A stretch of 43,385 nt of DNA from an uncultured Telmatospirillum sp. (GCA_903858635.1 CAIOJO010000219.1:1-43385); one strand, 5' to 3'; shown: positions 1-43,385, numbered from the stretch's first letter. A program made the numbers and translations. The notes: generated by a model from the sequence alone, not told the origin.

Positions 1-1
1 G

Positions 2-1148: not shown

Positions 1149-1162
1149 CCGAGGCCTGCCGC

Positions 1163-6334: not shown

Positions 6335-6369
6335 AGCGGCGGCAAGGCTGACCGTGCCGACCAGCGGCA

Positions 6370-9502: not shown

Positions 9503-9547
9503 GAATGTCGGCGCCCGGTCGACTTTGGCGAGATGCTCGGTGCGGCT

Positions 9548-13466: not shown

Positions 13467-13467
13467 G

Positions 13468-30700: not shown

Positions 30701-30963
30701 GCGATGCCACGGTGAGCGCCAAATACGACCTCAATTACATGTTCGAGCGGGATGATGGACTGTCGCTGACCATCGAATATGCGACCGAGTTGTTCGACGC
30801 CCCGACCGTCGAACGCTTTGCCGCCGAATTCCAGCGCATCGCCGCCATCGTCGCCGTGGACGGCGATGCGTCGCTGGCCCCTTTGTTGGCCGGCGGCAGG
30901 GTTGTCGCCGAGGCCGCTTTCCTGGGTTCGGCCGCCCCGGCGGCACGGGGCGAGGACTGGTAG
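17074..30963 (+). CDS. Hybrid FAAL-PKS-aminotransferase-NRPS megasynthase. Domain order: FAAL-ACP-KS-AT-ACP-AMT-C-T-C-C*-A-T-C.
   Basis: See the domain features below. The preferred start ATG at 17074 ([14 protein letters not shown]...) resembles FAAL N-termini and overlaps the autotransporter stop by 11 nt. The alternative in-frame ATG at 17026 (MSPPPPPP) has its Shine-Dalgarno too close. Confidence 0.95.
18840..19040 (+). other. Carrier protein 1 (ACP).
   Basis: [15 protein letters not shown]; phosphopantetheine-attachment Ser context. Confidence 0.6.
19111..20360 (+). other. Ketosynthase (elongating).
   Basis: The Cys-His-His triad is intact: [33 protein letters not shown]. Confidence 0.85.
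20641..21620 (+). other. Acyltransferase, malonyl-type.
   Basis: FPGQGSQ, GHSVGE, and HAFHS (an HAFH motif typical of malonyl-CoA specificity). Confidence 0.8.
21790..22020 (+). other. Carrier protein 2 (ACP).
   Basis: [14 protein letters not shown]. Confidence 0.65.
22290..23620 (+). other. Class III PLP aminotransferase (AMT) domain, the beta-amino-forming domain seen in iturin/mycosubtilin-type synthetases.
   Basis: [42 protein letters not shown], and the PLP-Lys region [13 protein letters not shown]. Confidence 0.8.
23668..24900 (+). other. Condensation domain C1.
   Basis: [10 protein letters not shown]...; HHIAVDGWS. Confidence 0.8.
24955..25170 (+). other. PCP with no cognate A domain in cis.
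   Basis: [30 protein letters not shown] sits directly between C1 and C2. There is no room for an A domain of about 500 aa. Confidence 0.75.
25219..26470 (+). other. Condensation domain C2.
   Basis: [13 protein letters not shown]...; HHSICDVWS (HHxxxD present, the Gly replaced by Val). Confidence 0.75.
26479..27760 (+). other. Second, contiguous C-like domain (C*) with a degenerate active-site motif.
   Basis: [12 protein letters not shown]...YYNMPLAV... follows C2 directly without a carrier. The motif is HHAVTDPVG instead of HHxxxDG. Confidence 0.65.
27770..29275 (+). other. Adenylation domain A1.
   Basis: [72 protein letters not shown]. Confidence 0.85.
29320..29540 (+). other. PCP.
   Basis: IWQEILGG...[11 protein letters not shown]. 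Confidence 0.75.
29593..30960 (+). other. Condensation domain C4 at the C-terminus of gene 1; it forms a split module with the A-T at the start of the second NRPS.
   Basis: [13 protein letters not shown]...; [10 protein letters not shown]. Confidence 0.8.
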
Positions 30964-30967
30964 CCCC

Positions 30968-32845
30968 ATGTGCGGAATCGTCGGCATTTTCGACCCCGCC
31001 AGCGAGGGGCTTTCGTCGCCGGACCTGCTGCGGCGGATGGCGGGAGCGCTCCGCCATCGCGGCCCCGACGACGAGGGCTTCTTCGAACGGCCGGAAGTTC
31101 AACTGGGCTTCCGCCGCCTGGCGATCATCGACCTCGCCGGCGGCAACCAGCCGATGGCCAGCGCCGATGGCCGGGTGGTCTCGGTGTGCAACGGCGAGAT
31201 CTACAATTATGCGGAACTGCGCAGCGAACTAGAGGCGCGCGGCCACCGCTTTCGGACGAACTGCGACGTCGAGGTGATCCCGCCGCTCTATCTGGAATAC
31301 GGACCGGATTTCGTCACCCGCCTCAACGGCCAGTTCGCTTTCGCCCTCTACGACATTCCCAATCGCCGCCTGATGCTGGCCCGCGATCCGGTGGGCATCG
31401 CGCCGCTGTTCACCGTCGCCTGCGGCAACGGCCTGCTGTTCGCTTCCGAGATCAAGGCCCTGCTGCAACATCCCGCCACCCCGCGGGCCGTCGACCTGAC
31501 CGGGCTCGACCAGATCCTGACCTTTCCCGGCCCGGTCAGCCCGCGCACCATCTTCCGGGACATTGCCAGCCTGGCGCCAGGCAGCCGCATGATCGTCGAG
31601 GCTTCGGGACGGCGGCGGATCGATACCTATTGGGATCTCGACTATCCGCGCATGGACGTGGCAGCGCCGGTGGGCCGCGAGGAAGACTACGTCGACGCCC
31701 TCGACGAGGCACTGCAAGCCGCGGTGCGGCGCCGGTTACGAGCCGACGTGCCGGTGGGCCTCTATCTGAGCGGCGGCCTCGACAGCTCGCTGATCGCCGC
31801 CATGGCGCAGGGGATCTCGGGCGGTGCCGACCGGCAATCCTTCGCCATCGGCTTCCACGACCCCGCCCTCGACGAGCGCCGCTACCAGCAGATCATGGTG
31901 GAACGACTCGGTACCCGCCATCATCAGGCGATCGTCGATCCCGATGCCATCTGCGGACGGCTGCGCGACATCGTCTTCCATGCCGAAGCGCCGCTGCGCG
32001 AATCCTACGACGTCTGCTCGCTGATCCTGTCCGGCCTGGTCCGCGATAATGGCATCAAGGTGGTGCTGACCGGCGAAGGCGCCGACGAGCTGTTCGGCGG
32101 CTATGTCGGCTATCGCCTGGACCCGCATCGGGCCGATGCCGAAGACGACGACCCCAATGACCTCGAAGCCCAGCTCGAGGCGGAGACTCGCCAGCATCTG
32201 TGGGGCGATCGGAATTTCTTTTACGAAAAGCCCTATCGCGCCTTCGCCGACCTCAAGACGGCGCTCTATGCGCCGGCGCTGCGCGAAGCCTTCGCCGAAT
32301 TCGACTGCCTGCGGGACTCGCCGGTCGATCGCCGCCGGCTGGACGGACGGCACGTGCTGCACAAGCGCTCCTATCTCGATTTCAAATTGCGCCTGGCGGA
32401 TCACCTGCTGGCCGACCATGGCGACCGGGTCGCCTACGCCCATTCGATCGAAGCGCGCTATCCCTTCCTCGACCCCCAGGTCATCGACCTGGTGCGGACC
32501 CTGCCGCCCGACCTGATGGTGAAGAACGGCATCGAAAAATACCTGCTGAAACGCCTCGCCGCCCGCTACCTGCCGGCCGCCATCACGGAACGCCAGAAGT
32601 TCAGTTTCGTCGCTCCTCCGGGACCGGCGCTGCTGCAGGCCGGCCATTCCTGGGTCGAGGACCTGTTATCGCCCGAACGCATCCGGCGGCAAGGCTATTT
32701 CGACCCGGAGACCGTCGAGGCGATGAAGGCGCAATATCGCCGGCCCGATTTTGCCCTCAACCAGACCTTCGACGATGATCCGCTGATGGTCGTCCTGACC
32801 TTCGGCATCCTGCTCGAAACCTTCGACCTGCCAAACCTCTCCTGA
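30968..32845 (+). CDS. Asparagine synthetase (glutamine-hydrolysing) AsnB-like amidotransferase.
   Basis: N-terminal nucleophile MCGIVG; PP-loop LYLSGGLDSSLIAA. The ATG lies 4 nt after the megasynthase TAG stop. Confidence 0.9.
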   Translation: MCGIVGIFDPASEGLSSPDLLRRMAGALRHRGPDDEGFFERPEVQLGFRRLAIIDLAGGNQPMASADGRVVSVCNGEIYNYAELRSELEARGHRFRTNCDVEVIPPLYLEYGPDFVTRLNGQFAFALYDIPNRRLMLARDPVGIAPLFTVACGNGLLFASEIKALLQHPATPRAVDLTGLDQILTFPGPVSPRTIFRDIASLAPGSRMIVEASGRRRIDTYWDLDYPRMDVAAPVGREEDYVDALDEALQAAVRRRLRADVPVGLYLSGGLDSSLIAAMAQGISGGADRQSFAIGFHDPALDERRYQQIMVERLGTRHHQAIVDPDAICGRLRDIVFHAEAPLRESYDVCSLILSGLVRDNGIKVVLTGEGADELFGGYVGYRLDPHRADAEDDDPNDLEAQLEAETRQHLWGDRNFFYEKPYRAFADLKTALYAPALREAFAEFDCLRDSPVDRRRLDGRHVLHKRSYLDFKLRLADHLLADHGDRVAYAHSIEARYPFLDPQVIDLVRTLPPDLMVKNGIEKYLLKRLAARYLPAAITERQKFSFVAPPGPALLQAGHSWVEDLLSPERIRRQGYFDPETVEAMKAQYRRPDFALNQTFDDDPLMVVLTFGILLETFDLPNLS

Positions 32846-32879
32846 GGATGGCGAAATAAGGAACGGGACCATAGACGCC

Positions 32880-34400
32880 ATGCAACGCAACGCTTACGTG
32901 GAGCAGTTCGAGTGGCAGACCGAGACCCGCCCGGCGGCGATCGCCATCGAGGCCGGCGGACGGGAGGTGAGCTACGGAACGCTGAATCGCGACGCCAACC
33001 GTCTCGCCCATGCCCTCGGCAGCGGGTCCGCCGGAACCGCCCCGCGGATCGTCGGCCTGTTCCTCGAACCCGGCATCGCCTATGTCGGCGCGCTGCTGGC
33101 GGCCGGCAAGGCGGGCGCCGCCTTCATGCCGTTGGATCCGGCCGATCCGCCGGCCCGGCTGGCCGACAAGCTGGCCCGCAGCGGGGTCCGCCAAGTCATC
33201 ACCGACTCCCGGTTGGCGCCACTCCTGGCCGAACCTCTGGCCGGCCGGCCGGAGGTGGCGCTGTTGGTGGCGGACCATGCCGGCGCCGGCCTGCCGGACA
33301 GCAATCCCGGCCTCGCCGTCAAGGCCGGCGATCCCTGCTACGTCATGTTCACCTCGGGCTCGACCGGAACACCCAAGGCGATCCTCGGCCAGCAACGCGG
33401 CCTCAGCCATTTCCTGCGCTGGGAACTGGCCGAATTCGGACTCGACGAACGCTGCCGGATCTCCTGGCTGGCGCCGCCCACCTTCGATGTCAGCCTGCGC
33501 GACATCCTGGCGCCGCTGATGGCCGGCGGCTGCCTGTGCATTCCCGACGAGCCCACCGCCCGCACGCCGCGGCTGCTGATCCGCTGGCTGGCCGACCGCC
33601 GGATCACCCTGGTCCATTGCGTTCCCACCGTGCTGCGCCTTCTGACCCAAGAACTGGGATCAACCGGGGCGGCCCTGCCGCTGCCCGACCTCGGCCATCT
33701 CCTGGTGGCGGGGGAACCCCTCTACGGCGCCGATGTCGCCGCCTGGCGCGCCGCCGCCGGCGGTGGCGCCCGGCTGGTCAATCTGTACGGGCCCTCGGAA
33801 ACCACCCTCGCCAAGCTGTTCCATCGGATCGAGGACCTGCCCGCCGATCCGCGCCGGGTGCTACCCATCGGCCGGCCGCTGCCCAATACCGCGGTGTTGA
33901 TTCTCAAGAACGGCAAGCCCTGCGTGGTCGGCGAAATCGGCGAGATCCATATCCAGACCCCCTATCGCAGCCTCGGCTATCTCGGCGATCCGGAATTGAC
34001 GGCAGCCGCCTTCATCGCCCATCCGCAGAATCCGGCCGAGCCGGAACCGCTCTACCGGACCGGCGATCTTGGTCGCATCAACGAGCAGGGACTGGTGGAA
34101 TGCCTCGGCCGCATCGACAACCAGGTCAAGATCCGCGGTATCCGGATCGAACTGGGCGAGATCGAGGCTGCCATGCGCAGCCTGCCCGGGGTCGCCGATG
34201 CGGCGGTGACGGTGCATGCCGATCAGTCCCAAACACTGGTCTGCTACGTCACCGGCCGCGATGGTCCGCCGCCGGCGGCGGAAGCATTGCGCCAAGGACT
34301 GACGGCGATTCTGCCGCCGGCGCTTCATCCCCATCTGTTCGTCCCCCTCGCCCTGCTGCCCCGCACCCTCAGCGGCAAGATCAACCGCAAGGCCTTACCC
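32880..34400 (+). other. Adenylation domain A2.
   Basis: MFTSGSTGTPKA, TFDVSLRDI, NLYGPSETT, YRTGDLGR, GRIDNQVKIRGIRIELGEIE, SGKINRKAL. Confidence 0.85.
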
Positions 34401-37400
34401 CGGCCCGAAGCGCTGTTCTACCAACAGCACGCCTTTGCCGCGCCCGAGAGCGCCGCCGAAGAACGGCTGTGCCGGATCTGGAGCGAGCTGTTCGGCATGG
34501 AGCGGATCGGTGTGACCACCGCATTCGTCGAGTTCGGCGGTGACTCGCTGAAAGCGATGCGCGCCCTGGCCCGCATCTACGACGACTTCGGCATCGAGGT
34601 CAGCCTGCGCGATTTCTTCTCCCGTCCCACCATCCGCGCCCTGGCCTCCCTGCTTGCCACTACGGCCCAGCCTGCGGTCCCCGGCGCGCTGATTTCCCGA
34701 ATGCCGGAGATGCCCGACTATCCGGTATCGGCGGTCCAGGCACGGCTGTGGACGCTTGACCGCATGGGGGTCGCCCCGACCGCCTACAATCTCGCCGAAG
34801 CCTATCTGCTGGCCGGCCCGCTCGATGCCGAGGCCCTGGAGCAGGCCTTCCAGGCCACCATCGCCCGCCATGAATCGCTGCGCACCGCCTTCGTCGAGGG
34901 GGCGGGCGGCCTGCCCCGCCAAGTCGTCCATGCCGACCCGGCCTGGCGCATGGAACGGTTCGCAATGGCCTCGATCGAAGAGGCGGAAGCCGCGGCGGCA
35001 GCCAATCCCGAACATCCCTTCGATCTATCCCGGCCCACCCAGCTGCGGGTCGTCCTCATCCATTTGCCTGCCGGCCAGGACATCGAACGGCATGTGCTGC
35101 TGTTCAATATCCACCATATCATCAGCGATGTCTGGTCCCTCGACCTGCTGGTCCGCGAGGTGGCGGCACATTACCGGGCACGCATCGACACTGGCGGCGA
35201 GGCTCCCCTGCCCCCCCTCGCGCTGCACTATCGTGATTTCGCCGGCTGGCAACAGGCGCGGCTGTCCGGCCCCGATGCCGGCGCCGACCGGGCCTTCTGG
35301 CACGCCCATCTGGCGGCACCGCGGCCCCTGCTCGATCTGCCGACCGACCTGCCGCGCCCGGTGATGCAGACCTTCCGTGGCGCCACGCTGCACTTCGAGC
35401 TGCCGCCGGACAACCTGGCGGCGCTCGACCGTCTGGCCGAGACGCGCGGCGCCAGCCGCTTCTCCCTCCTCGCGGCGCTGACCGGACTGCTGCTGCACCG
35501 CGTCACCGGCCAGACCGACCTGATCCTCGGCAGCCCGGTGCTCGGACGCGATCAGCCCGGCCTGCAAGAGCAGATCGGCTGTTTCGTCAATGAACTTGCC
35601 CTTCGCCTGAGGATCGCTTCCGACGACAGCTTCGCCGACCTCCTGGCCCGCATGGCCGAAACCGTCGGCGGCGCTTTGCAGCACCAGTCCTTCCCCTTCG
35701 ACGCCCTGCTGGGTGAACTGGAATTGCGCCGGGACATCAGCCGCGCGCCGCTGTTCGATGTCATGGTGGTGCTGCAGCCGGAGGACAGTCTCGATCTGAC
35801 CCTCGACGGGATCGCAGTCTCGCCGTTCGGAGCGCGCAACGCCTGGAGCTTCAGCCGCTACGATCTGGTGTTCCATTTCATGGAAACCGCGGACGGGCTT
35901 CGCCTCGACCTCAATTACAACACCGATCTGTTCCTGCCCGCGCGGATCCGCCGACTGGGCGCCCTGTGGCTGGAAGCGGCGGAGGCCGCCGCCCTGGCCC
36001 CGGATGCGCCGTTGGCGTCCCAGGCGCCGCTGCCGGCCCAGGAAGTAACGCTGTTGGCCGAGCTGGCGGCGGGGCCGATGCGGCCGCGGCCGCAAGAGGC
36101 GACCATGGCGAGCCTGGTCGCGGCGCAGGCGCTGCGGGATCCGCAAGCGCTGGCGGTGCTGGCGGCGGGACAGTCGGTGAGCTACGGGCGGCTCGACCAG
36201 GCTGCCGGGCGGATCGCCCGACATCTGGCGGAACGGGGGATCCGACGCGGCGACCGGGTGGGGGTGCAGGCCCTGCCGAGCGCTGCCAGCCTGGCCGCAT
36301 TGCTGGGGATTCTCTATGCCGGAGCGGTCTATGTGCCGCTCGATTCGACCCTGCCGACGGCGCGGCTGGCGTGGATGGCGGCTCGCGCCGGCTGCCGCCT
36401 GGTGCTGGTCGACACGGCGGACGAGACCCGCCCCGAGGTCGGCGAAGCGGCAGCGGTGGCCGCCATTCTCGGCAGCGCCGATCCTGCCGGCTGGGCGCTG
36501 GAGGGACAGTCGGGTGGCCTCGACGCGGCGCTCGCGCCACGTCCGGAGGATGCCGCCTACCTCATCTTCACCTCCGGCTCGACCGGGGAACCCAAGCCGG
36601 TCCTGGTGGCCCACGGCGGTTTCGTCAACATGACCCTGGGCCAGGTCGAAATCCTCGGCTTAACGACGACGGACCGGGTGTTGCAGTTCGCCTCGCCGGG
36701 GTTCGACGCCGCCCTGGCCAATCTGTTCATGGCCTGGGTGGCGGGCGGGGCGGTGGTCACCATCGAGCGCGCGACGATTGACGATCCAGGACGCTTTCTC
36801 GCCACTCTGGACGCGACGAAGTGCAGCGTGGTGACCCTGCCGCCGACCTATCTGCGGATGCTCGACCACGCAACATTGGGCCCGGTGCAGGTGCTGATCA
36901 CCGCTGGCGAGCCGGCCGTAGCGGGGGATCTGGGCCATTACGCGAATCACCTGCGGGTGTTCAACGCATACGGTCCGACCGAGATCTCGGTCTGCGCCAC
37001 CATGCATCGGGTGCAGCCGGCGGATGGCGCCTTGGCCCGCATTCCCATCGGCCGGCCGCTGCCCAACGTCACCATCCGACTGCTCGATGCGGCCGGACGC
37101 GCGGTGCCGGCGGGCGCCGTCGGCGAGATCCATATCGGCGGGCCGGGCGTGGCGCTCGGCTATCTCGGCGATTCGACGGCGACCGCGGCGCGTTTCGTCA
37201 TCGGCAATAGTGGAGAGCGGCTCTATCGCAGCGGCGATCTGGGCCGATGGCGTGAAGACGGTAGCCTCGACTTCCTGGGCCGCAACGACGATCAGGTCAA
37301 GGTGAACGGCCATCGCCTCGAACCGGGCGAGGTGGCAGCGGCGCTGCGTGGCCTGCCCGATGTCGCCGACGCCCATGTCGCCGGGCTGACGCGGCCCGAC

Positions 37401-40229
37401 GGCAGCACCGGACTGGCCGCCTGGTACGTGCCGCGGCGCCGCCCGGAGCTGTGGCCATCGGTGGCGGAATTCTATATCTACGACGATATCCTCTACGGCA
37501 GCATGGCCGCCGACACGGCGCGCAACGCCGCCTACCGCGCCGCCTTCCAGCGCCATCTTGCCGGCAAGACGGTGCTCGAGATCGGTCCCGGCCCGCTGGC
37601 GGTGCTGTCGCGGCTTGCCATCGAAGCCGGGGCGAAGCGGGTTTATGCCGTCGAACTGCTGGCCGAGACCTGCGAGAAGGCGCGCCGTACCGTCGCCCTG
37701 CAGGGCCTGGCCGACCGCATCGTCGTGCTGCATGGCGATCTGCGCCATATCGCGCTGCCGGAACCGGCCGATATCTGCATCTCGGAGATTGTCGGCGCCA
37801 TCGGCGGCTCGGAGGGAGCGGCAGCGATCATCAATTCGGCGCGCCGCCTGCTGACCGACCCGACGGCAATGCTGCCGCGACGCAGTCTGACCCGCGTCGC
37901 CGCGGCAAGCCTGCCCGACGAATTGCTGCGGCGGGCCTTCGGCAAGACCGCCGCCCATTACGTCGAGCGAATCTTCGCCGAGGTCGGGCGCCCCTTCGAC
38001 CTGCGACTCTGCGTCAAACACCTGCCGATGGACGCAATCCTGTCCGGCGACGCGGCGTTCGAGGATCTCGACTTCACCCGCGACCTGCCGCTCGAGGGCG
38101 ACCACACCATCACCCTCGACGTCACCCGGGCCGGAGTGATGACCGGATTCATCGTTTGGCTGACCCTCGAAATCGACGAGACCAGCCGGTTCGACATCCT
38201 CGAATCGCAGGCCAGCTGGCTGCCGGTCTATCTTCCGGCCTTTCCCGAGGGGATCCAGGTCGAGCCCGGCGACCGCATCACCGCCACCATCCGCCGCCGC
38301 CTCTCGGTCAACCGCCTCAATCCCGACTTTGCGCTCTCCGGCGAGGTCATCCGAGCCGGCCTCCCGCCCTTGGCTTGGCACCATGACAGCCCCCATTGCG
38401 CTCAGTCGTTCCGGGCCAATCCCTTCACCCAAGCCTTGTTCCCCGAAGGGCGCATCGCCACCAGCGAGGCGGCCGCCACCGCCGAGCTGCGCTCCGCCTT
38501 GGCCCGCCAGTTGCCGGCCTATGCTGTTCCCGCCTTCCTGATCCCGGTGGACAGCCTGCCGCTGACCGCGAACGGCAAGGTGGACCGCACCGCCCTGCCC
38601 GACCCCCTGGCCGGCGCAGCGCAAAGCGGCGGCATCCCCGGGACGGCCCTCGAAGCAACCATTCTGGCCATCTGGCACAAGGTGCTGGGTCGGGAGGATC
38701 TGGGCACCGGTGACGATTTCTTCTCCCATGGCGGCGACTCGATCCGCGCCATCCAAATCCTCGCCCAGCTCTACCAGGCCGGTCTCAAGGCGGAGATCCG
38801 CGATATCTTCCAGAACCCGACGGTGGCGACCTTTGCCCGGCGGGTCCGGCCGCTCCGGCAGGCCGCCACCCAGGAGCCGGCGGCCGGTCCGGCGCCGTTG
38901 ACCGCAATCCAGCGCTGGTTCTTCCACACCATCACGGCGGCCCCGGCGCATTTCCTCGTTGCGGTGCTGCTCAAGGCGCCGGCACGGCTTGACCCTACCG
39001 CCACCGAAGGCGCGGTGCAGGCCCTATGGCGCCACCATGATGCCCTGCGGGCCCGTTTCATCGATGGGCCGCCGACCATCCAGCAAATCATCGACGGCCC
39101 CGAAACCCGGGCTGGCTTTACCGAAGTCGATCCGGATCGACTGCCCGACTGGGCGAACGCCGCCTATGGCAGCCTGTCGCTGCGCGATGGCCCCTTGTTC
39201 AAGGCGGTACTCGCCCGTGGCGCCGGCGAGGCGGGCGGCGATGCGGTTCTCCTGGTCGCCCACCATCTGGTCGCCGACGCGGTGTCCTGGCGCTTCCTGC
39301 TGGAGGACTTCATCACCGCCTACGAGGCGCTGCGGACCGGTGAGGTTCCCAACCTGCCCCGCAAGACCCTGTCATTCCGCGACTATGCGCGGAGCGAAGA
39401 GCAGGCCGCGCCTGCCAACGACACCGACCTCGCCGACTGGCGGCGGCTGGCGGCGGTGCCGCCGCTGCCGGTCGACCACCCGGCACCGGGCGGCGCGACC
39501 GTCGCCGACAGCCGCAGTGTGGCCCTGGTGATTCCCGCCCCCGAAACCGCCCTGCTGGTGGCGGCGGCGCATTCCGAGCCCGATGGGGGACTGCAGGTTC
39601 TGCTCCTGGCCACCCTTGCCCGTGCACTGCGCCGCAGCTTCGGCTGCCGGCGCGCCCTGATCACCGTCGAAGGGCACGGCCGCGACGAAAGCGCCGATGA
39701 ATTCGATCTCACCCGCACCGTTGGCTGGTTCACCGTCTTCCATCCGCTGCTCCTGGAGATGCCGGAGGTTCCGATCCTCGATCTGGCCCGCCAGATCCAG
39801 CGCAATCTCGCCCTGCTGCGCGGCCGTAGCCGGGCCTACGTGAAAGGCTTGGCGGCTCTCGGCGCCGAAGCACCCGCCCCGTCGATCGGCTTCAATTATC
39901 TGGGTGACTTCGGTGCGACCCGCCGGGGCGAAGGGATCGCCGTCGAGTGGACGCCGCCAGGCCAGCCGGCCGCGCCGGACAATCCGCGGATTCACCCGAT
40001 CGACCTGCTGGCCATGGTGATTGATGGTCGGCTGGAGATCGGGATCGATTACGATTCCGGCAGCTTCGCGGCGACGACCATCGCCCGGCTGGCCGAGTCG
40101 TGGCGGGCCGCGCTGGACGAATTTGCCGCCGGATGCCGCCAGGCGGGCGGCTTGAGCCGCCTTGACACCGCCCCTTCCCACTTTCCGATGGACCAGGCGC
40201 ATTTGGAGAACCTGCTTGTCGGCGACTGA
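32880..40229 (+). CDS. NRPS. Domain order: A-T-C-A(with embedded methyltransferase)-T-C(terminal).
   Basis: See the domain features. There is no thioesterase domain. Confidence 0.95.
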   Translation: MQRNAYVEQFEWQTETRPAAIAIEAGGREVSYGTLNRDANRLAHALGSGSAGTAPRIVGLFLEPGIAYVGALLAAGKAGAAFMPLDPADPPARLADKLARSGVRQVITDSRLAPLLAEPLAGRPEVALLVADHAGAGLPDSNPGLAVKAGDPCYVMFTSGSTGTPKAILGQQRGLSHFLRWELAEFGLDERCRISWLAPPTFDVSLRDILAPLMAGGCLCIPDEPTARTPRLLIRWLADRRITLVHCVPTVLRLLTQELGSTGAALPLPDLGHLLVAGEPLYGADVAAWRAAAGGGARLVNLYGPSETTLAKLFHRIEDLPADPRRVLPIGRPLPNTAVLILKNGKPCVVGEIGEIHIQTPYRSLGYLGDPELTAAAFIAHPQNPAEPEPLYRTGDLGRINEQGLVECLGRIDNQVKIRGIRIELGEIEAAMRSLPGVADAAVTVHADQSQTLVCYVTGRDGPPPAAEALRQGLTAILPPALHPHLFVPLALLPRTLSGKINRKALPRPEALFYQQHAFAAPESAAEERLCRIWSELFGMERIGVTTAFVEFGGDSLKAMRALARIYDDFGIEVSLRDFFSRPTIRALASLLATTAQPAVPGALISRMPEMPDYPVSAVQARLWTLDRMGVAPTAYNLAEAYLLAGPLDAEALEQAFQATIARHESLRTAFVEGAGGLPRQVVHADPAWRMERFAMASIEEAEAAAAANPEHPFDLSRPTQLRVVLIHLPAGQDIERHVLLFNIHHIISDVWSLDLLVREVAAHYRARIDTGGEAPLPPLALHYRDFAGWQQARLSGPDAGADRAFWHAHLAAPRPLLDLPTDLPRPVMQTFRGATLHFELPPDNLAALDRLAETRGASRFSLLAALTGLLLHRVTGQTDLILGSPVLGRDQPGLQEQIGCFVNELALRLRIASDDSFADLLARMAETVGGALQHQSFPFDALLGELELRRDISRAPLFDVMVVLQPEDSLDLTLDGIAVSPFGARNAWSFSRYDLVFHFMETADGLRLDLNYNTDLFLPARIRRLGALWLEAAEAAALAPDAPLASQAPLPAQEVTLLAELAAGPMRPRPQEATMASLVAAQALRDPQALAVLAAGQSVSYGRLDQAAGRIARHLAERGIRRGDRVGVQALPSAASLAALLGILYAGAVYVPLDSTLPTARLAWMAARAGCRLVLVDTADETRPEVGEAAAVAAILGSADPAGWALEGQSGGLDAALAPRPEDAAYLIFTSGSTGEPKPVLVAHGGFVNMTLGQVEILGLTTTDRVLQFASPGFDAALANLFMAWVAGGAVVTIERATIDDPGRFLATLDATKCSVVTLPPTYLRMLDHATLGPVQVLITAGEPAVAGDLGHYANHLRVFNAYGPTEISVCATMHRVQPADGALARIPIGRPLPNVTIRLLDAAGRAVPAGAVGEIHIGGPGVALGYLGDSTATAARFVIGNSGERLYRSGDLGRWREDGSLDFLGRNDDQVKVNGHRLEPGEVAAALRGLPDVADAHVAGLTRPDGSTGLAAWYVPRRRPELWPSVAEFYIYDDILYGSMAADTARNAAYRAAFQRHLAGKTVLEIGPGPLAVLSRLAIEAGAKRVYAVELLAETCEKARRTVALQGLADRIVVLHGDLRHIALPEPADICISEIVGAIGGSEGAAAIINSARRLLTDPTAMLPRRSLTRVAAASLPDELLRRAFGKTAAHYVERIFAEVGRPFDLRLCVKHLPMDAILSGDAAFEDLDFTRDLPLEGDHTITLDVTRAGVMTGFIVWLTLEIDETSRFDILESQASWLPVYLPAFPEGIQVEPGDRITATIRRRLSVNRLNPDFALSGEVIRAGLPPLAWHHDSPHCAQSFRANPFTQALFPEGRIATSEAAATAELRSALARQLPAYAVPAFLIPVDSLPLTANGKVDRTALPDPLAGAAQSGGIPGTALEATILAIWHKVLGREDLGTGDDFFSHGGDSIRAIQILAQLYQAGLKAEIRDIFQNPTVATFARRVRPLRQAATQEPAAGPAPLTAIQRWFFHTITAAPAHFLVAVLLKAPARLDPTATEGAVQALWRHHDALRARFIDGPPTIQQIIDGPETRAGFTEVDPDRLPDWANAAYGSLSLRDGPLFKAVLARGAGEAGGDAVLLVAHHLVADAVSWRFLLEDFITAYEALRTGEVPNLPRKTLSFRDYARSEEQAAPANDTDLADWRRLAAVPPLPVDHPAPGGATVADSRSVALVIPAPETALLVAAAHSEPDGGLQVLLLATLARALRRSFGCRRALITVEGHGRDESADEFDLTRTVGWFTVFHPLLLEMPEVPILDLARQIQRNLALLRGRSRAYVKGLAALGAEAPAPSIGFNYLGDFGATRRGEGIAVEWTPPGQPAAPDNPRIHPIDLLAMVIDGRLEIGIDYDSGSFAATTIARLAESWRAALDEFAAGCRQAGGLSRLDTAPSHFPMDQAHLENLLVGD
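34440..34660 (+). other. PCP.
   Basis: FVEFGGDSLKAM. Confidence 0.75.
34715..36020 (+). other. Condensation domain C5.
   Basis: YPVSAVQARLWTL...; IHHIISDVWS. Confidence 0.8.
36090..38605 (+). other. Adenylation domain A3, interrupted between core motifs A8 and A9.
   Basis: FTSGSTGEPKPV, GFDAALANL, NAYGPTEIS, YRSGDLGRW, GRNDDQVKVNGHRLEPGEV (A8), then an insert of about 350 aa, then LPAYAVPAFL (A9) and NGKVDRTAL (A10). Confidence 0.85.
37440..38500 (+). other. Embedded PRMT-fold (type I protein-arginine-methyltransferase-like) SAM methyltransferase domain.
   Basis: FYIYDDILYG...NAAYRAAF resembles the YFxxY...ML...R...Y N-terminal helix of PRMTs. The motif I region is VLEIGPGPLAVLSRLAIEAGAKRVYAVE; compare PRMT VLDVGSGTGIL..AAKAGA.KVIGIE. 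The post-I region is IVVLHGDLRHIALPEPADICISEIVGAIGGSEGAA, with two Glu nine residues apart (compare the PRMT double-E loop in VDIIISEWMGYCLFYESM). A THW-loop-like SWLPVYL follows. Confidence 0.65.
38640..38860 (+). other. PCP.
   Basis: FFSHGGDSIRAIQ. Confidence 0.75.
38888..40226 (+). other. Terminal condensation-like domain (a candidate releasing or cyclising C domain).
   Basis: LTAIQRWFF...; VAHHLVADAVSW (an HHxxxD-type motif with Ala in place of Gly). It is the last domain, and the operon encodes no thioesterase. Confidence 0.7.
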
Positions 40230-40929
40230 CCGATCTGTTTCCTGGCCACAGCCCGGCCAGATTCATGTCTGGTACTGCCGGCAGGACTCCGCGACGGAGC
40301 CGGCGGCCGACACGCTCGATGCGGCCGAGCGGGAGCAGGCGGGGCGGTTCCGCAATCGCCACGACGCCCGGCGCCATATGGCGACCCATGGCGCCTTGCG
40401 CCGTATCCTCGCCGCCTATCTGGGGCTTGATCCCGCCGCCGTGCCGATCACCCGCAGCGCCGCCGGCAAGCCCCGGCTCGGTCTGTCCGGCGCAGAACCC
40501 GGCTTGACCTTCAACCTGTCCCACAGCGCCGATCTGGCCGCCGTCGCCGTCGCCGCGGGGGCAGAGATCGGAGTCGATATCGAGGAGAAGCGGCCCTTGG
40601 CAGATCTGGATGGCGTCGCCCGCCTGGTCTTCACCGAGGCGGAATGCGCCGCCCTGGACTCCCTGCCGCAATCGCGACGACTCGACGCCTTCTATGAGTG
40701 CTGGACCCGCAAGGAGGCGTTGCTCAAGGCGATGGGCAGCGGCCTGCTGCGCGATCCGCGGGAGGTCGGACTGGGGTTCGGGGAAGGCGGCAAGATGGAA
40801 TTCCGTGACGCCGATTCCAGCCTGTGGTCCATCGCCCCGCTTGCCCCGCCGGAGGGGATGGGCGGAGCGGTGGCCATCCAGGGCCGACTCCTCGGAGTCC
40901 TGCAGTTTGACGGCGCACCGGGGAAGTAA
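40216..40929 (+). CDS. Sfp-type 4'-phosphopantetheinyl transferase.
   Basis: GKPRL, FNLSHSADLA, GVDIEEKRP, ECWTRKEALLKAMG. The proposed TTG start at 40216 has a GGAGA Shine-Dalgarno 7 nt upstream and overlaps the NRPS stop by 14 nt. There is no in-frame ATG or GTG before the conserved N-terminal region. Confidence 0.75.
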   Translation: MSATDRSVSWPQPGQIHVWYCRQDSATEPAADTLDAAEREQAGRFRNRHDARRHMATHGALRRILAAYLGLDPAAVPITRSAAGKPRLGLSGAEPGLTFNLSHSADLAAVAVAAGAEIGVDIEEKRPLADLDGVARLVFTEAECAALDSLPQSRRLDAFYECWTRKEALLKAMGSGLLRDPREVGLGFGEGGKMEFRDADSSLWSIAPLAPPEGMGGAVAIQGRLLGVLQFDGAPGK

Positions 40930-40935
40930 CGGCCC

Positions 40936-42300
40936 CTACTTCGGAGTCGAACCCGTCGTCGCGGCATCGGCGAGGAAGGGAATCTTGAAAGGCAGGCGAA
41001 TGGTCACGGTGCTGCCGCCGGTACCGGCGGCGGCGCGGCTCTGTCGATCGGAGGTCTTGGTGGCCATCACCGCCGCCTGCGTGTCGCTGCCCGCCTGGGT
41101 CTCGCTCTCGCCTTGCGGCTCCTTGTTCCCGGCCATCGAGCGATCGATATTGGACAGTCCCTGGGGCTCGGCGGGGGCCACCGGCACCTCCGCCGTGTCG
41201 GGAAGCGGCTTCGCCTGGCCCGTGGCCAGATCGGGATTGGCCGCATCGGCCGCGACCGGGCGATCGCCCGAACGGGATCCACGAGCAAGCGGCGGACCGC
41301 TGGACAGCGAGCCACCGTATTGCGGCAACCCCTCCGGCGCTCCGGCCTGGGCATGCGGGCCCCACGGGGCGCCCGGCGCCGCGGCCGGGGCCGTCGCGCC
41401 GTCGGTATTGAGGATGAGCGGCAGGCCGTCCTTGCCACCGATGACGATTACCTTGGCGTTCGGCGAGGTGGCGAGTTGCAGCGTCGCCTCGATGCCGCGC
41501 CATTGCAGATAGGTCGGCGAGATGCCCTGCTGCACCACCTGCTGGAACTTGGAGATGCCGCCGGCCTCGATCTCCTTCCTCTGCGCTTCCAGCCGCTCGC
41601 GGTCCAGCCGATAGGTATAGCCCAGCGCCAGCTGCTGCTGGCGGGCCTTCTCGAGGATCGCCTGGGACAGTTCCTCGGGAAGCTGCACCTCGCGGATATG
41701 GATCTCGTCGGCGAAGACCAGGTCAATCGGTATCTGCCGGCCTCTTCCGGCGACCCGATTTTCCGGCGCGCTGACGATATCGGTAAGGATTTCCGCCTCG
41801 ATCTGGTGGCGTTCGGCACCATAGAGGGAATCGACCGAATAATTGGCGATGGCGCGCCGCACCTCGGCGCCGATCGCCGGCAGCATCAGTACGTCGACAT
41901 AGTCCTGGCCGATCTGCTGGTGCAGTTGCGGCAGGTTCTCGCGGACCAGGTGATAGAGCAGGGTGATCTGGCAATCGACGGTGATGCCGTCCTTGGTGAT
42001 CGCCTTGTAGCTATGGGTGTCGTTGCGCTCGCGGATGTAATAGGAATAGATCCGATCCCAAGGGAAGATGAGGTGCAGCCCGTCGTTCAGCGGCTGCGGC
42101 GCCACCCCGCCGCCGAAGCGGTACCACAGGACCCCGGCATCGCCGGTGGCGACGGTGATCGCCACCCGCGGCGCAAAGAAGGTCGCGACGAACATGATGG
42201 TGAACAGGACGATCAGCAGGTCCCGCCGCGCCGGGCCGGCCGCCTGTTTCAACCAGCCGAAGACGCCGGCGAGGATGGGATGCTTGTCGGAAACCGCCAT
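40936..42300 (-). CDS. SPFH/band-7 (prohibitin/HflK/C-like) membrane protein with a long low-complexity C-terminal tail.
   Basis: N-terminal transmembrane segment LLIVLFTIMFVATFFA. SPFH core VLWYRFGGGV...ITKDGITVDCQITLLYHLV. The tail is rich in Ala, Pro, Gly and Gln. Confidence 0.8.
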   Translation of the reverse strand: MAVSDKHPILAGVFGWLKQAAGPARRDLLIVLFTIMFVATFFAPRVAITVATGDAGVLWYRFGGGVAPQPLNDGLHLIFPWDRIYSYYIRERNDTHSYKAITKDGITVDCQITLLYHLVRENLPQLHQQIGQDYVDVLMLPAIGAEVRRAIANYSVDSLYGAERHQIEAEILTDIVSAPENRVAGRGRQIPIDLVFADEIHIREVQLPEELSQAILEKARQQQLALGYTYRLDRERLEAQRKEIEAGGISKFQQVVQQGISPTYLQWRGIEATLQLATSPNAKVIVIGGKDGLPLILNTDGATAPAAAPGAPWGPHAQAGAPEGLPQYGGSLSSGPPLARGSRSGDRPVAADAANPDLATGQAKPLPDTAEVPVAPAEPQGLSNIDRSMAGNKEPQGESETQAGSDTQAAVMATKTSDRQSRAAAGTGGSTVTIRLPFKIPFLADAATTGSTPK

Positions 42301-42340
42301 GGCCCTTCTGATCTGCTGGTTCGGGTGCCGGAGAGGACCC

Positions 42341-42507
42341 TCAACGGGTCTGTCGTTGGGCCATGCTCATGGTAATGATCAGGACCAGCAACCCGATAAG
42401 CGGCGTCATCACCATCGAAACGACAAAATAGAGCAGGAAACCGCCCGGCCGGCCGGTCGCCAGGAGACCGACCAGCAAGGCGCAGGCGACGTACCAGACC
42501 CCGAGCA
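42341..42507 (-). CDS. Possible membrane protein of about 55 aa with two transmembrane segments; it is not in the ORF track.
   Basis: Own translation: MLGVWYVACALLVGLLATGRPGGFLLYFVVSMVMTPLIGLLVLIITMSMAQRQTR. It sits between the SPFH gene and the DUF697-like gene on the same strand. No Shine-Dalgarno was checked. Weak. Confidence 0.2.
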
Positions 42508-42541
42508 TCACGGCACCCGCCGGCCGGTTCCGCTCATGGCG

Positions 42542-43099
42542 TCATCCGGCCCTGGCTTCGGCGCGCGCTGGCTTGCCGCCGGTCTTGGCCCCGCCGACGG
42601 CGCCGGTTTCCGTCTTCGCCGCCTCGAACTCCTTCAGGAAGAAGGCCCGCATTTCGTCGGGATCGAAATCCAGCAGCGTGCCGCCGGCCTCGAAATGGGA
42701 GATGAACACGCGGCCCAGCGCCAGCGTCGCCGCTCCGGCCAGGGCCGGCATCAGCGCCATGCCGACCACCGATCCGACGAACGGGATCGACTTGGCAACC
42801 ATCCCCAAGACCCCCGTGCTGAGCGCATAGGGAACGCCGCCGCCGACCAGGCCGCCGATGATCGCCTTGACCCGCTCCCGCTGGAAGGGCACCCCGTACA
42901 ACTCGCCCAGGCGGTAGATCAGATTGATCTGCACGCCGGCCACCGTCGCCAGGTCGAGCGCGGGAATCGGGATCAGCCCGGCCCCAGCCGACCACCAGGC
43001 ATTATTTCTCACCAGCCGATGCGCTTCCGCCAGCCGCTCCGCCTCGTTCAGCGGCGGCTTCTCCGCTTCCGCGGTCGCGATCTCAACGCCCTCGCTCAT
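42542..43099 (-). CDS. DUF697-like membrane-associated protein.
   Basis: LVRNNAWWSAGAGLIPIPALDLATVAGVQINLIYRLGELYGV resembles the DUF697/YcjF-type core. The ATG at 43099 (MSEGVEIA) has a GGAGGG Shine-Dalgarno 4 nt upstream. Confidence 0.5.
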   Translation of the reverse strand: MSEGVEIATAEAEKPPLNEAERLAEAHRLVRNNAWWSAGAGLIPIPALDLATVAGVQINLIYRLGELYGVPFQRERVKAIIGGLVGGGVPYALSTGVLGMVAKSIPFVGSVVGMALMPALAGAATLALGRVFISHFEAGGTLLDFDPDEMRAFFLKEFEAAKTETGAVGGAKTGGKPARAEARAG

Positions 43100-43111
43100 C
43101 ACACCCTCCAT

Positions 43112-43329
43112 ATTGCAATGGTTGCATCCCCGCTGCGCCCGCAGACTTGTCCTAACCCTAGTAATGCAACGGTTTTTCGGCGCGATTGAAAGTCACTGTT
43201 ACTATTTGCCGGCAAAACCTCGAAGTCAAGTGACCTCTCCCCGACGGCAGGGCTCCGAACTCAGGTTAACGAGGTTTACGGCTTGCGCTGGGCGTGATTC
43301 TCTGAATCGCCCAGATTCGGAGAACCCTG
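43112..43329. promoter_or_regulatory. Divergent promoter region with an inverted repeat; candidate operator.
   Basis: AATGGTTGCAT (43117-43127) and ATGCAACGGTT (43164-43174) are imperfect inverted copies about 36 bp apart. A small palindrome CTGCGcccGCAG lies between them. TTGCA is also directly repeated (TTGCAatggTTGCA). Confidence 0.2.
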
Positions 43330-43385
43330 ATGCCCCTGACGGCGATGTTTCTTGGCGAGAAATCGCGCCTGCGTGCCCTGCTCGA
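43330..43385 (+). CDS. 5' end of an unidentified CDS running off the window.
   Basis: The ATG at 43330 has a GGAGA Shine-Dalgarno 7 nt upstream (MPLTAMFLGEKSRLRALL...). Confidence 0.3.
   Translation, partial: MPLTAMFLGEKSRLRALL

What the first reader, a model, noticed from the sequence alone, without database searches (positions are those of the whole stretch)
37440..38500. PRMT-fold methyltransferase with a double-E loop embedded in an NRPS adenylation domain.
The insert sits at the canonical A8/A9 position used by embedded N-, O- and S-methyltransferases. Its sequence is not of those families. It aligns by eye with type I protein arginine methyltransferases: the YFxxY helix, the motif I VLEIGPGP...AGAKRVYAVE, the double-E loop ICISEIVGAIGGSEGAA with two Glu nine residues apart, and a THW-like loop. 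In PRMTs the double-E loop clamps the guanidinium group. That suggests this domain methylates a guanidino (or amidino/ureido) side chain of the residue activated by A3, which would imply an N-omega-methyl-arginine-like building block. I am not aware of a PRMT-type domain among described interrupted A domains.
Basis: partly seen in the sequence, partly recalled or inferred. Interest (0 to 1): 0.8.

Follow-up and report, generated by a model that had tools for sequence, protein, structure and literature searches.

The report
Known tyrosine-methylating insert in peptide synthetase
The insert really is an arginine-methyltransferase-like (PRMT-fold) domain inside a peptide-synthetase adenylation domain, but it belongs to an already catalogued family linked to O-methyl-tyrosine, and its host domain is built to select tyrosine, not arginine.

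Summary
Between motifs A8 and A9 of the second adenylation (A) domain of the NRPS gene 32880-40229(+) lies a ~344-aa methyltransferase (nt 37434-38465). It is homologous to type I PRMTs along its whole length: PRMT6 scores 8e-17 with the single sequence and 7e-48 with a profile. An AF2 model (pLDDT 94) gives Foldseek top-50 hits that are all PRMT6, CARM1 or plant PRMT4. Both Glu of the double-E loop are present and conserved in homologues.

The interpretation does not hold. The insert matches all four motifs of the "type III M domain, Ms(O,Tyr,a8-a9)" of interrupted A domain families 2b/5b (Lundy et al. 2020). PRMT similarity of such a domain was already noted for LynB3 (2023). The host A domain's specificity code is DAATIAAVCK, which is Tyr/Phe-type with no acidic pocket residue for a guanidinium.

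Relatives about 47% identical sit in DidJ (didemnin, N,O-diMe-Tyr) and in the gene I read as CrpC (cryptophycin, 3-Cl-O-Me-Tyr). Both keep the double-E loop, so that loop does not indicate a guanidino substrate.

Most likely function: SAM-dependent O-methylation of carrier-bound tyrosine. Verdict: new member of a known kind. Residual interest: no assay or structure of this family turned up in my searches, and a sister clade sits in Arg-like A domains.

The parts
32880..40229 (+). NRPS gene (2449 aa), layout A-T-C-A(M)-T-C, ending in a C domain and not a TE
   Evidence: Translation. Pfam finds AMP-binding x2, PP-binding x2, Condensation x2, AMP-binding_C, Methyltransf_25 and PRMT5. HHxxxD motifs are at aa 745 and 2128.
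36057..37433 (+). Host adenylation domain, N-terminal part through motif A8 and the first strands of the A-sub domain (aa 1060-1518)
   Evidence: Pfam AMP-binding aa 1082-1429 and TIGR01733 aa 1101-1500. A5 is at aa 1362, A6 at 1415, A7 at 1449, A8 at 1467.
36705..36995 (+). Stretch holding nine of the ten specificity-code residues: D1276 A1277 A1280 T1319 I1340 A1342 A1363 V1371 C1372. With K1900 the code is DAATIAAVCK (Tyr/Phe-type).
   Evidence: Positions were mapped by motif register to GrsA numbering. The same mapping recovers canonical codes elsewhere: Thr DFWNIGMVH, and Tyr DASTVAAVC and Gln DAWQFGLID.
37278..37334 (+). A-domain core motif A8 (GRNDDQVKVNGHRLEPGEV)
   Evidence: Regex match.
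37434..38465 (+). Embedded methyltransferase, ~344 aa (aa 1519-1862): a type III M domain with a PRMT fold (Rossmann domain plus beta-barrel)
37572..37601 (+). M-domain motif i, the SAM-binding motif I (VLEIGPGPLA; GxGxxA)
   Evidence: Exact match to V(V/L)(E/D)(I/V)GxGxxA of PMC8341866.
37734..37802 (+). M-domain motif ii (GDLRHIALPEPADICISEIVGAI), containing the first Glu
   Evidence: Exact match to the published motif ii.
37782..37817 (+). Double-E loop SEIVGAIGGSEG (E1636 at nt 37785-37787; E1645 at nt 37812-37814)
   Evidence: Aligns with SEWMGYGLLHES of PRMT6. Conserved 77/82 and 80/82.
37971..38006 (+). M-domain motif iii (IFAEVGRPFDLR)
   Evidence: Exact match to (I/V)FxxxxxxFDLR.
38217..38240 (+). 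M-domain motif iv (WLPVYLPA). Its Trp aligns with the Trp of the PRMT THW loop; the preceding residue is Ser where PRMTs have His.
   Evidence: Exact match to WLPV(F/Y)(F/L)Pd. Profile alignment to PRMT6, 'sW' against 'HW'. Column counts.
38466..38609 (+). Rest of the A-sub domain after the insert: A9 LPAYAVP (nt 38511-38531) and A10 NGKVDR (nt 38571-38588, K1900 = position 517)
   Evidence: Pfam AMP-binding_C profile positions 42-76. Regex matches.
38652..38849 (+). Carrier (T) domain that would hold the substrate; GGDSI starts at aa 1951, so the phosphopantetheinyl Ser is aa 1954 (nt 38739-38741). Domain limits are approximate.
   Evidence: Pfam PP-binding x2 in the ORF. GGDSI motif.
38862..40226 (+). 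Terminal condensation-type domain (HHLVADA at aa 2128), the presumed release step. The start coordinate is approximate.
   Evidence: Pfam Condensation x2. Motif. Retained in relatives L005, L006 and L009, where alignments run to aa ~2415-2426.

Best explanation
The insert is a type III M domain, the side-chain O-methyltransferase of family 2b interrupted adenylation domains (A8-MIII-A9). Its fold descends from type I protein arginine methyltransferases.

Proposed working (steps inferred unless marked as shown):
1. The host A domain (code DAATIAAVCK, shown) adenylates L-tyrosine or a very close aromatic analogue.
2. It loads that residue on the downstream T domain (phosphopantetheinyl Ser1954).
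3. The embedded domain binds SAM through motif I (GxGxxA) and the post-I Glu of AVE (motifs shown).
4. It transfers the methyl group to the phenolic oxygen of the tethered residue, giving an O-methyl-tyrosine building block.
5. This is the last residue of an assembly line that starts from a beta-amino fatty acid, before release by the terminal C domain.

The two conserved Glu probably position and deprotonate the phenol instead of clamping a guanidinium. The loop between them is Gly/Ala-rich (EIVGAIGGSE), whereas PRMT6 has bulky aromatics there (EWMGYGLLHE). The THW His is replaced by Ser. Both changes fit a remodelled, roomier acceptor pocket.
For: Family membership.
- All four published type III motifs match exactly. 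The length is 344 aa against a published 350 +/- 10, and the position is a8-a9.
- That family was defined from ThxA2 (thaxteramide), DidJ (didemnin) and VatN (vatiamide), whose products carry O-Me-Tyr or N,O-diMe-Tyr (PMC8341866).

Product-linked relatives retrieved here.
- Tistrella mobilis pTM3: C-A-MIII-(Methyltransf_12-type MT)-T-TE, code DASTLAAVC, 47% identical, with all motifs plus SEIIGPIGGCE. I read this as DidJ.
- Nostoc sp. ATCC 53789: C-A-MIII-T-E, flanked by PKS, P450, TauD and PanD genes, code DASTIAGIG, 46% identical. I read this as CrpC. Cryptophycin unit B is 3-chloro-O-methyl-D-Tyr.

Host specificity.
- About 47 of 82 homologous domains sit in A domains with Tyr-like codes; 27 are exactly DAST[IV]AAVC.
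- In a neighbour-joining tree of the M domains, the window falls inside that Tyr-code clade.
- Ala and Ser alternate at position 239 between near-identical cyanobacterial sisters: L030 DAATIAAVC and L032 DASTIAAVC.

Prior literature. LynB3-OMT and LynB5-OMT were described as arginine-methyltransferase-like and presumed to be Tyr O-methyltransferases.

No alternative substrate pathway. The window has no p-aminophenylalanine genes and no arginine-modifying genes next to the NRPS genes.
Against: - I found no in vitro assay or solved structure of any type III M domain in the searched library. O-methylation rests on the correlation between gene and product.
- The window's code has Ala at position 239 where the canonical Tyr code has Ser, so Phe or another para-substituted aromatic cannot be excluded.
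- Strict conservation of both Glu is not obviously required for methylating a phenol.
- The same domain type also occurs in A domains with non-Tyr codes, so the family is not tied to tyrosine alone.
- The product of this gene cluster is unknown. No close (>54% identical) relative of the insert was retrieved.
Confidence: 0.78

Rival explanations
1. One reading: the domain is a guanidino (or amidino/ureido) N-methyltransferase. It would act on an Arg-like residue activated by the host A domain and give an N-omega-methyl-arginine-type building block.
For: True PRMT homology with both Glu conserved. Some more distant family members do sit in A domains with Arg-like codes: DVEDIGAIT in L046 and L055, against the Arg-specific ApnA-A1 code DVEDIGAIEK.
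Against: The host code DAATIAAVCK has no acidic pocket residue and is 9/10 identical to a Tyr code. The window's M domain clusters with Tyr-code hosts. DidJ and CrpC keep the double-E loop yet are linked to O-Me-Tyr products. The THW His is absent.
Confidence: 0.03
2. The domain methylates an aromatic residue other than plain tyrosine, or a different atom. Examples are the O-methylation of homotyrosine, beta-hydroxy-Tyr or a Hpg-like residue, or the N-methylation of an amino-substituted Phe. This would be permitted by the enlarged pocket from Ser239 to Ala.
For: Ala at position 239 departs from the canonical Tyr code. The family tolerates varied hosts: Hpg-like DIFHFGLII, bHty-like DASSIAAIG, and keto-acid-type [VI]GSWLAASG in A-KR-M loading modules. 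[quoted passage not shown]
Against: No genes for making such precursors lie next to the NRPS genes. S and A interchange at position 239 between near-identical sisters L030 and L032. Syntenic clusters with the identical code exist in Pseudoalteromonas (L005, L006) without evident precursor genes in the 10-kb flanks, which I did not search exhaustively.
Confidence: 0.13
3. The domain is a catalytically dead or purely structural remnant, and the module incorporates unmethylated Tyr or Phe.
For: No direct evidence of activity. The Pfam methyltransferase scores are marginal.
Against: The SAM-binding positions counted are intact and near-invariant across 82 homologues: both motif I Gly, the post-I Glu (82/82), Arg1549 (80/82), and Asp1546, which the profile alignment places on the PRMT6 Asp (77/82). 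The AF2 model is highly confident. All four family motifs are exact.
Confidence: 0.04

Closest known systems
Type III M domain, Ms(O,Tyr,a8-a9), of interrupted A domain family 2b (A8-MIII-A9; representative ThxA2 module 6, thaxteramide synthetase) - Lundy, Mori & Garneau-Tsodikova 2020, PMC8341866
   Same: Same insertion point (a8-a9), same size, all four signature motifs exact, a single M domain, and a Tyr-type host code.
   Different: Position 239 of the code is Ala, not Ser. The module is followed by T and a terminal C domain. The source organism and product are unknown. Identity to any retrieved relative is at most 54%.
Family 5b back-to-back domains (A8-MIII-MI-A9): DidJ (didemnin), VatN (vatiamide), LynB3/LynB5 (lyngbyapeptin B)
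   Same: The first M domain is the same type. The DidJ domain is 47% identical, with all motifs and the double-E loop. The LynB3 domain is explicitly described as arginine-methyltransferase-like.
   Different: Those carry a second, backbone N-methylating type I M domain (Methyltransf_12-type) and give N,O-dimethyl-Tyr. The window has only the side-chain domain.
CrpC of the cryptophycin synthetase (Nostoc sp. ATCC 53789 plasmid pNsp_c). The identification comes from gene order and the published cluster description.
   Same: C-A(MIII)-T architecture, 46% identity, all motifs plus SEIVGPIGGSE. The Pfam PRMT5 hit is stronger there, at 35.8 bits. The product carries O-methyl-Tyr.
   Different: CrpC ends in an epimerisation-type domain and its Tyr is also chlorinated. 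Its code is DASTIAGIG.
Eukaryotic type I protein arginine methyltransferases (PRMT6, CARM1/PRMT4, PRMT1, PRMT3, PRMT8)
   Same: The whole catalytic core is shared: the N-terminal helix with a conserved Asp and Arg, motif I, the post-I Glu, a double-E loop with identical 9-residue spacing, the beta-barrel, and the Trp of the THW loop.
   Different: Sequence identity is only ~22-25%. The THW His is replaced by Ser or Cys. The double-E loop is Gly-rich instead of aromatic. The domain is embedded in an A domain and presumably acts on a carrier-tethered small molecule. The inferred acceptor atom is a phenolic O, not a guanidino N.
Type II M domain, Ms(O,Ser/Thr,a8-a9) (KtzH, ColG)
   Same: Also a side-chain O-methyltransferase inserted between a8 and a9.
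   Different: It has an unrelated motif set (EIFxxxxYxxxG, DVGx(N/H)xG...) and a ~290 aa size. None of those motifs occurs in the window insert (by eye; no regex search was run for them).

Membership tests
Type III M domain / family 2b interrupted A domain (PMC8341866) | M domain inserted between A-domain core motifs a8 and a9 | tested here: met
   A8 at aa 1467-1485 and A9 at aa 1878, with the insert between them.
Type III M domain / family 2b interrupted A domain (PMC8341866) | Size 350 +/- 10 aa | tested here: met
   About 344 aa (aa 1519-1862), with boundaries taken from the alignment to homologues and the A-sub motifs.
Type III M domain / family 2b interrupted A domain (PMC8341866) | Motif i V(V/L)(E/D)(I/V)GxGxxA | tested here: met
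   VLEIGPGPLA at aa 1565.
Type III M domain / family 2b interrupted A domain (PMC8341866) | Motif ii GDdxxdx(L/I)PEx(A/V)(D/E)xC(V/I)SEI(V/I/F)GxI | tested here: met
   GDLRHIALPEPADICISEIVGAI at aa 1619.
Type III M domain / family 2b interrupted A domain (PMC8341866) | Motif iii (I/V)FxxxxxxFDLR and motif iv WLPV(F/Y)(F/L)Pd | tested here: met
   IFAEVGRPFDLR at aa 1698 and WLPVYLPA at aa 1780.
Type III M domain / family 2b interrupted A domain (PMC8341866) | Host A domain predicted to activate Tyr, Phe or analogues | tested here: met
   Code DAATIAAVCK, 9/10 to the Tyr code DASTIAAVCK and 8/10 to the GrsA Phe code DAWTIAAICK.
Type III M domain / family 2b interrupted A domain (PMC8341866) | A/M boundary sequence L(V/A/I)(A/G)(Y/F)xxx | tested here: inconclusive
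   The window has LAAWYVP, with Trp in place of Tyr/Phe. The strict regex finds no match, but this is a near match.
Type III M domain / family 2b interrupted A domain (PMC8341866) | O-methyl-tyrosine in the product, or O-methylation activity | not testable with these tools
   The product is unknown. Even for the family this is inferred from products only.
Type I protein arginine methyltransferase (PRMT) | PRMT catalytic-core fold (Rossmann SAM domain plus beta-barrel) | tested here: met
   Foldseek top 50 are all PRMTs, TM 0.65-0.76, ~335 aligned columns. Profile E 6.9e-48.
Type I protein arginine methyltransferase (PRMT) | Double-E loop: two Glu nine residues apart | tested here: met
   E1636 and E1645 align with the PRMT6 Glu pair. 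Conserved 77/82 and 80/82.
Type I protein arginine methyltransferase (PRMT) | THW loop with its His | tested here: not met
   Trp is kept (80/82). The His position is Ser in the window; across the family it is Ser 38, Cys 28, Ala 7, Thr 5, Asn 3, Ile 1 and His 0.
Type I protein arginine methyltransferase (PRMT) | Substrate is the guanidino group of (protein) arginine | tested here: not met
   This is an indirect test. The host A-domain code is aromatic with no acidic pocket residue. The product-linked relatives DidJ and CrpC give O-Me-Tyr.
Type I protein arginine methyltransferase (PRMT) | Homodimerisation through a dimerisation arm | not tested
   The model has two short helices (insert residues 160-163 and 169-182) at that position. 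No oligomer prediction was run.

The most novel reading that the evidence does not exclude
Despite its Tyr-type host pocket, the domain may keep PRMT-like nitrogen chemistry. It would then N-methylate an amino-, amidino- or guanidino-bearing aromatic residue, so the module would deliver a building block not yet known from NRPS products.

A related reading, which my evidence leaves open for relatives and not for the window: the sister clade of this domain sits in Arg-like A domains (DVEDIGAIT and similar, in Pyrinomonadaceae, Longimicrobium and some cyanobacteria). Those could be true assembly-line arginine N-methyltransferases, and the Tyr O-methyltransferases would be their derivatives.
Probability: 0.05. 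Interest if true: 0.8.

Novelty: new member of a known kind. Interest (0 to 1): 0.28.

Why it matters
For this window the result is an annotation. The last module of a lipopeptide-type PKS/NRPS line most likely installs O-methyl-tyrosine, which helps structure prediction and genome mining.

More generally, the analysis makes explicit something the defining paper of type III M domains did not state, and a later paper mentioned in one sentence. This whole class of NRPS side-chain methyltransferases is a PRMT-fold enzyme with an intact double-E loop. I found no structure or assay of it, so how a guanidinium-clamping active site was converted to methylate a phenol is an open and tractable mechanistic question.

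The family is widespread: at least 534 loci among GTDB species representatives.

Tried and rejected
- Guanidino-substrate hypothesis: rejected on the A-domain code and on product-linked relatives.
- p-Aminophenylalanine or another unusual precursor: Pfam annotation of the window genes at 1-13500 and 40162-43189 found no pap-like or arginine-modifying genes next to the NRPS genes. What it found was an Orn/Lys/Arg decarboxylase fragment 30 kb away, a TauD-like dioxygenase, a class V aminotransferase, histidine kinases, a ParA-like ATPase, a PPTase and an SPFH protein.
- Literature search for the exact codes DAATIAAVCK and DVEDIGAITK: no paper. A looser search found the ApnA-A1 Arg codes.
- Identifying the source organism: megablast of 30000-43385 against plasmids gave only ~95-bp NRPS-motif hits in Ralstonia. 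The best protein and locus hits are 50-54% identical. The organism remains unknown; the nearest M-domain relatives are alphaproteobacterial.
- SznE (streptozotocin free-arginine N-methyltransferase) as a possible stand-alone relative: I could confirm from a paper only that it is an arginine methyltransferase. I had no sequence to compare, so this is untested.
- One Pfam call failed on a frame error and was repeated.
- Shadow ORFs over the region have no family match.

Full report
**1. What is there.**
The window is GC-rich, 63-73%. Its right half holds a hybrid PKS/NRPS cluster. The finding lies in ORF 32880-40229(+), a 2449-aa NRPS. Pfam gives two AMP-binding, two PP-binding and two Condensation domains, plus weak Methyltransf_25 and PRMT5 hits at aa 1565-1661. 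The layout is A-T-C-A(insert)-T-C.

In the second A domain the core motifs A5, A6, A7 and A8 are at aa 1362, 1415, 1449 and 1467. A9 (LPAYAVP) and A10 (NGKVDR) follow only at aa 1878 and 1898. The ~344 residues between, aa 1519-1862 (nt 37434-38465), are the insert. Long ORFs on the opposite strand and in another frame over this region have no family match. They are the shadow ORFs expected in GC-rich DNA.

**2. Is it PRMT-like? Yes, unambiguously.**
- The insert alone, searched against all PDB sequences, returns about 48 PRMT entries before anything else. PRMT6 leads at 8e-17, followed by AtPRMT4.2, PRMT9, CARM1, PRMT7, PRMT1, PRMT8, PRMT3 and PRMT2.
- The alignment places SEIVGAIGGSEG on SEWMGYGLLHES of PRMT6, so both Glu of the double-E loop match.
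- A profile of the insert plus 26 database homologues (alignment A1) raises this to 6.9e-48. It extends the alignment across the beta-barrel to the THW loop, and all 60 listed hits are PRMTs.
- An AlphaFold2 model built on A1 is very confident, with pLDDT 94.2 and pTM 0.91.
- Foldseek against the PDB gives PRMT6, CARM1 or plant PRMT4 for all top 50 hits, E about 1e-23, TM 0.65-0.76 over ~335 columns.
- Pfam's PRMT5 model just passes its curated cut-off, 23.2 against 22.9 bits.

In 82 homologous domains the two Glu are conserved 77/82 and 80/82. The post-I Glu is conserved 82/82, the Arg of the N-terminal helix 80/82, and the Trp of the THW-equivalent loop 80/82. There are two corrections of detail. 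The His of THW is never present; the position is Ser, Cys, Ala, Thr or Asn, and Ser in the window. The YFxxY motif reads FYIY.

**3. Is it outside the described embedded-methyltransferase families? No.**
Lundy, Mori and Garneau-Tsodikova (2020, PMC8341866) sorted bacterial interrupted A domains into families. They defined a 'type III M domain, Ms(O,Tyr,a8-a9)' of 350 +/- 10 aa. It occurs alone in family 2b (representative ThxA2 of the thaxteramide synthetase, n = 79). It occurs followed by a backbone N-methylating type I domain in family 5b (DidJ of didemnin, VatN of vatiamide). Its four motifs are listed.

The window matches every one exactly:
- VLEIGPGPLA
- GDLRHIALPEPADICISEIVGAI
- IFAEVGRPFDLR
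- WLPVYLPA

Motif ii contains the first Glu of the double-E loop, and motif iv is the THW-equivalent loop. That paper never mentions arginine or PRMT. The lyngbyapeptin B paper (2023, PMC10127204) states that the first embedded methyltransferase of LynB3 and LynB5 resembles arginine methyltransferases and presumes it O-methylates Tyr. So both the domain family and its PRMT likeness are in the literature.

**4. What does the host A domain select?**
I mapped the ten specificity positions by motif register to GrsA numbering. The code is DAATIAAVCK. The same mapping returns textbook codes for other domains: DFWNIGMVH (Thr) for the A domain of the upstream gene, and DASTVAAVC (Tyr, as in CepA) and DAWQFGLID (Gln) in other loci. 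This validates the register.

DAATIAAVCK is 9/10 identical to DASTIAAVCK. It has no acidic residue in the pocket apart from the alpha-amine-binding D235. For comparison, the Arg-specific ApnA-A1 domains of Planktothrix read DVEDIGAIEK (PMC5311044).

**5. Relatives.**
A scan of one genome per GTDB species found at least 534 loci encoding this domain. They occur in Acidobacteriota, Cyanobacteria, Myxococcota, Proteobacteria, Bacteroidota and others, with best identity 54%. The protein database also holds stand-alone forms of ~360 aa.

For the 80 retained loci I extracted the host code. About 47 of the 82 domains are Tyr-like, and 27 are exactly DAST[IV]AAVC. Three loci share the window's DAATIAAVC: L005 and L006 from Pseudoalteromonas, and L030 from Komarekiella. 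In L030 the near-identical sister L032 has DASTIAAVC, so Ser and Ala interchange at position 239.

In a neighbour-joining tree of the M domains, the window lies inside the Tyr-code clade. Its neighbours are alphaproteobacterial loci: BAL199, Roseomonas, Acidisphaera and Rhodopila. L005 and L006 are also syntenic with the window. They have an NRPS gene, an asparagine-synthetase-like gene (53% identity), and then A-T-C-A(M)-T-C at 40% identity over ~2415 aa.

**6. Product-linked relatives.**
A tblastn search of plasmid records found two.

- On Tistrella mobilis KA081020-065 pTM3, from the didemnin producer, the domain lies in a 2187-aa ORF. The layout is C-A-MIII-(Methyltransf_12-type MT)-T-TE and the host code is DASTLAAVC. 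This is the published A8-MIII-MI-A9 architecture of DidJ, which supplies N,O-dimethyl-Tyr.
- On Nostoc sp. ATCC 53789 pNsp_c, the domain lies in a 1943-aa NRPS with the layout C-A-MIII-T-E. That gene sits between a PKS gene and a 3344-aa gene, followed by P450, TauD-family and aspartate decarboxylase genes. [quoted passage not shown] I read the locus as crpB-crpG on that basis. Cryptophycin unit B is 3-chloro-O-methyl-D-tyrosine (PMC6835634).

Both domains are 46-47% identical to the window's insert. Both have all four motifs and both Glu: SEIIGPIGGCE and SEIVGPIGGSE. This is the key logical point. The double-E loop is retained in domains tied to O-methyl-tyrosine, so its presence cannot be used to infer a guanidino acceptor.

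**7. Mechanism proposed.**
- Shown: the fold, the SAM-binding motifs, the position in the A domain, the host code, and family membership.
- Inferred: the A domain loads Tyr (or a close aromatic analogue) on the T domain (Ser1954). The embedded domain then methylates the phenolic oxygen of the tethered residue with SAM, either before or after condensation.

The two Glu probably orient and deprotonate the phenol. Compared with PRMT6 (EWMGYGLLHE), the loop between them is Gly/Ala-rich (EIVGAIGGSE), and the THW His is Ser. This suggests a roomier, remodelled acceptor site. That last point is sequence-based inference; I could not inspect the model coordinates. I put 0.78 on Tyr O-methylation. The main reservations are that I found no type III M domain that has been assayed or solved, and that position 239 is Ala.

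**8. Rivals.**
- Guanidino N-methylation (0.03) fails on the code, the tree position, the DidJ and CrpC precedents and the missing His.
- A different aromatic substrate or a different acceptor atom (0.13) is not excluded, because the family is versatile (see section 9).
- A dead domain (0.04) is unlikely given the intact, near-invariant SAM-binding residues.

**9. Things beyond the finding.**
- A separate clade of these domains sits in A domains with non-Tyr codes. It comes mostly from Pyrinomonadaceae, Longimicrobium, Gemmatimonadota and Chthoniobacterales. The codes include several Arg-like ones (DVEDIGAIT, DVENVGAIT, DVEDVGAVA), a Gln code, Hpg-like codes and codes lacking D235.
- ApnA-A1 variants such as DVESIGAIAK activate both Arg and Tyr, so these codes do not settle the substrate. 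The M-domain motifs, including the double-E loop, are equally conserved there.
- Six loci (for example Methylobacter tundripaludum SV96) carry the domain in an A-KR-M-T loading module of a PKS, with a keto-acid-type code.
- A stand-alone homologue on Streptomyces plasmids sits next to an 'arginine deiminase family protein'.

**10. Verdict.**
The PRMT homology is right. The claim of novelty and the guanidino-substrate inference are not supported. This is a new member (at most 54% identical to any retrieved relative) of a known kind of interrupted A domain, and it most likely makes O-methyl-tyrosine. Interest is modest at 0.28. It rests on the uncharacterised mechanism of a PRMT-fold O-methyltransferase and on the Arg-code sister clade, not on this locus itself.

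Noticed in passing
L046, L055, L051, L072, L066, L068, L070, L031, L037 (M domain at the coordinates listed): Homologous PRMT-fold M domains sit in A domains with Arg-like codes: DVEDIGAIT, DVENVGAIT, DVEYVGAIT, DVEDVGAVA, DVEDIGCIS. The Arg-specific ApnA-A1 code is DVEDIGAIEK, and DVESIGAIAK is Arg/Tyr bispecific. Both Glu are conserved there too. These could be assembly-line arginine methyltransferases, or Tyr modules with unusual pockets.
   Followed up: partly
L007, L010 (nt 6191-16942), L026, L029, L039, L040: The same M domain occurs in a PKS loading module, A-KR-M-T-KS-AT-DH-KR-T (Methylobacter tundripaludum SV96, Rhodospirillum sp., Thiomargarita and others). The A codes lack Asp235 ([VI]GSWLAASG), which is the keto-acid type. 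This suggests O-methylation of a hydroxy acid, not of tyrosine.
   Followed up: partly
L080, L047, L076, L071, L079, L073, L075: Further host codes for this M domain: the exact Gln code DAWQFGLID, Hpg-like DI[WF]HFGLII, GFWS[VA]STG[QR] (no Asp235) and DAFSLGGTF. The family is not restricted to tyrosine.
   Followed up: no
L083 nt 7069-11026 (Streptomyces sp. F2 plasmid pFRL4); similar hits on six other Streptomyces plasmids: A stand-alone homologue (~36% identity, annotated as class I SAM-dependent methyltransferase) lies in a same-strand gene run after an 'arginine deiminase family protein', cation antiporters and a nitroreductase. This hints at guanidino-compound metabolism for the free-standing forms.
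   Followed up: no
window 17026-30963 (+): A 4645-aa hybrid gene: FAAL-ACP-KS-AT-ACP-aminotransferase-C-T-C(or E)-C-A(Thr, DFWNIGMVH)-T-C. This is an iturin/mycosubtilin-like beta-amino fatty acid start. One C-T module has no A domain of its own.
   Followed up: partly
window 30779-32845 (+) and 32880-34400 (+): An asparagine-synthetase-like gene (GATase plus Asn_synthase) sits between the two synthetase genes. It is conserved at 53% identity in the syntenic Pseudoalteromonas loci L005 and L006, and at 51% in L011. The A domain right after it has an unusual code, DVRHLALLA, of unknown specificity.
   Followed up: partly
window 13596-17084 (+): A 1162-aa protein fuses a beta-lactamase/PBP-fold domain (aa 95-426) to an autotransporter beta-barrel (aa 891-1141). 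It lies directly upstream of the PKS/NRPS gene and overlaps its start by 59 nt. Whether it belongs to the pathway (stand-alone PBP-type enzymes release some NRPs) is unknown.
   Followed up: no
window 38862-40226 (+) and 40162-40929 (+): The assembly line ends in a condensation-type domain (HHLVADA), not a thioesterase, and this end is retained in relatives L005, L006 and L009. An Sfp-type phosphopantetheinyl transferase gene overlaps the end of the NRPS gene.
   Followed up: no
window 6370-7395 (-) and 9548-10849 (-): A TauD/TfdA-family dioxygenase and a class V aminotransferase lie upstream of the cluster, among two-component regulators. Their relation to the pathway was not determined.
   Followed up: no
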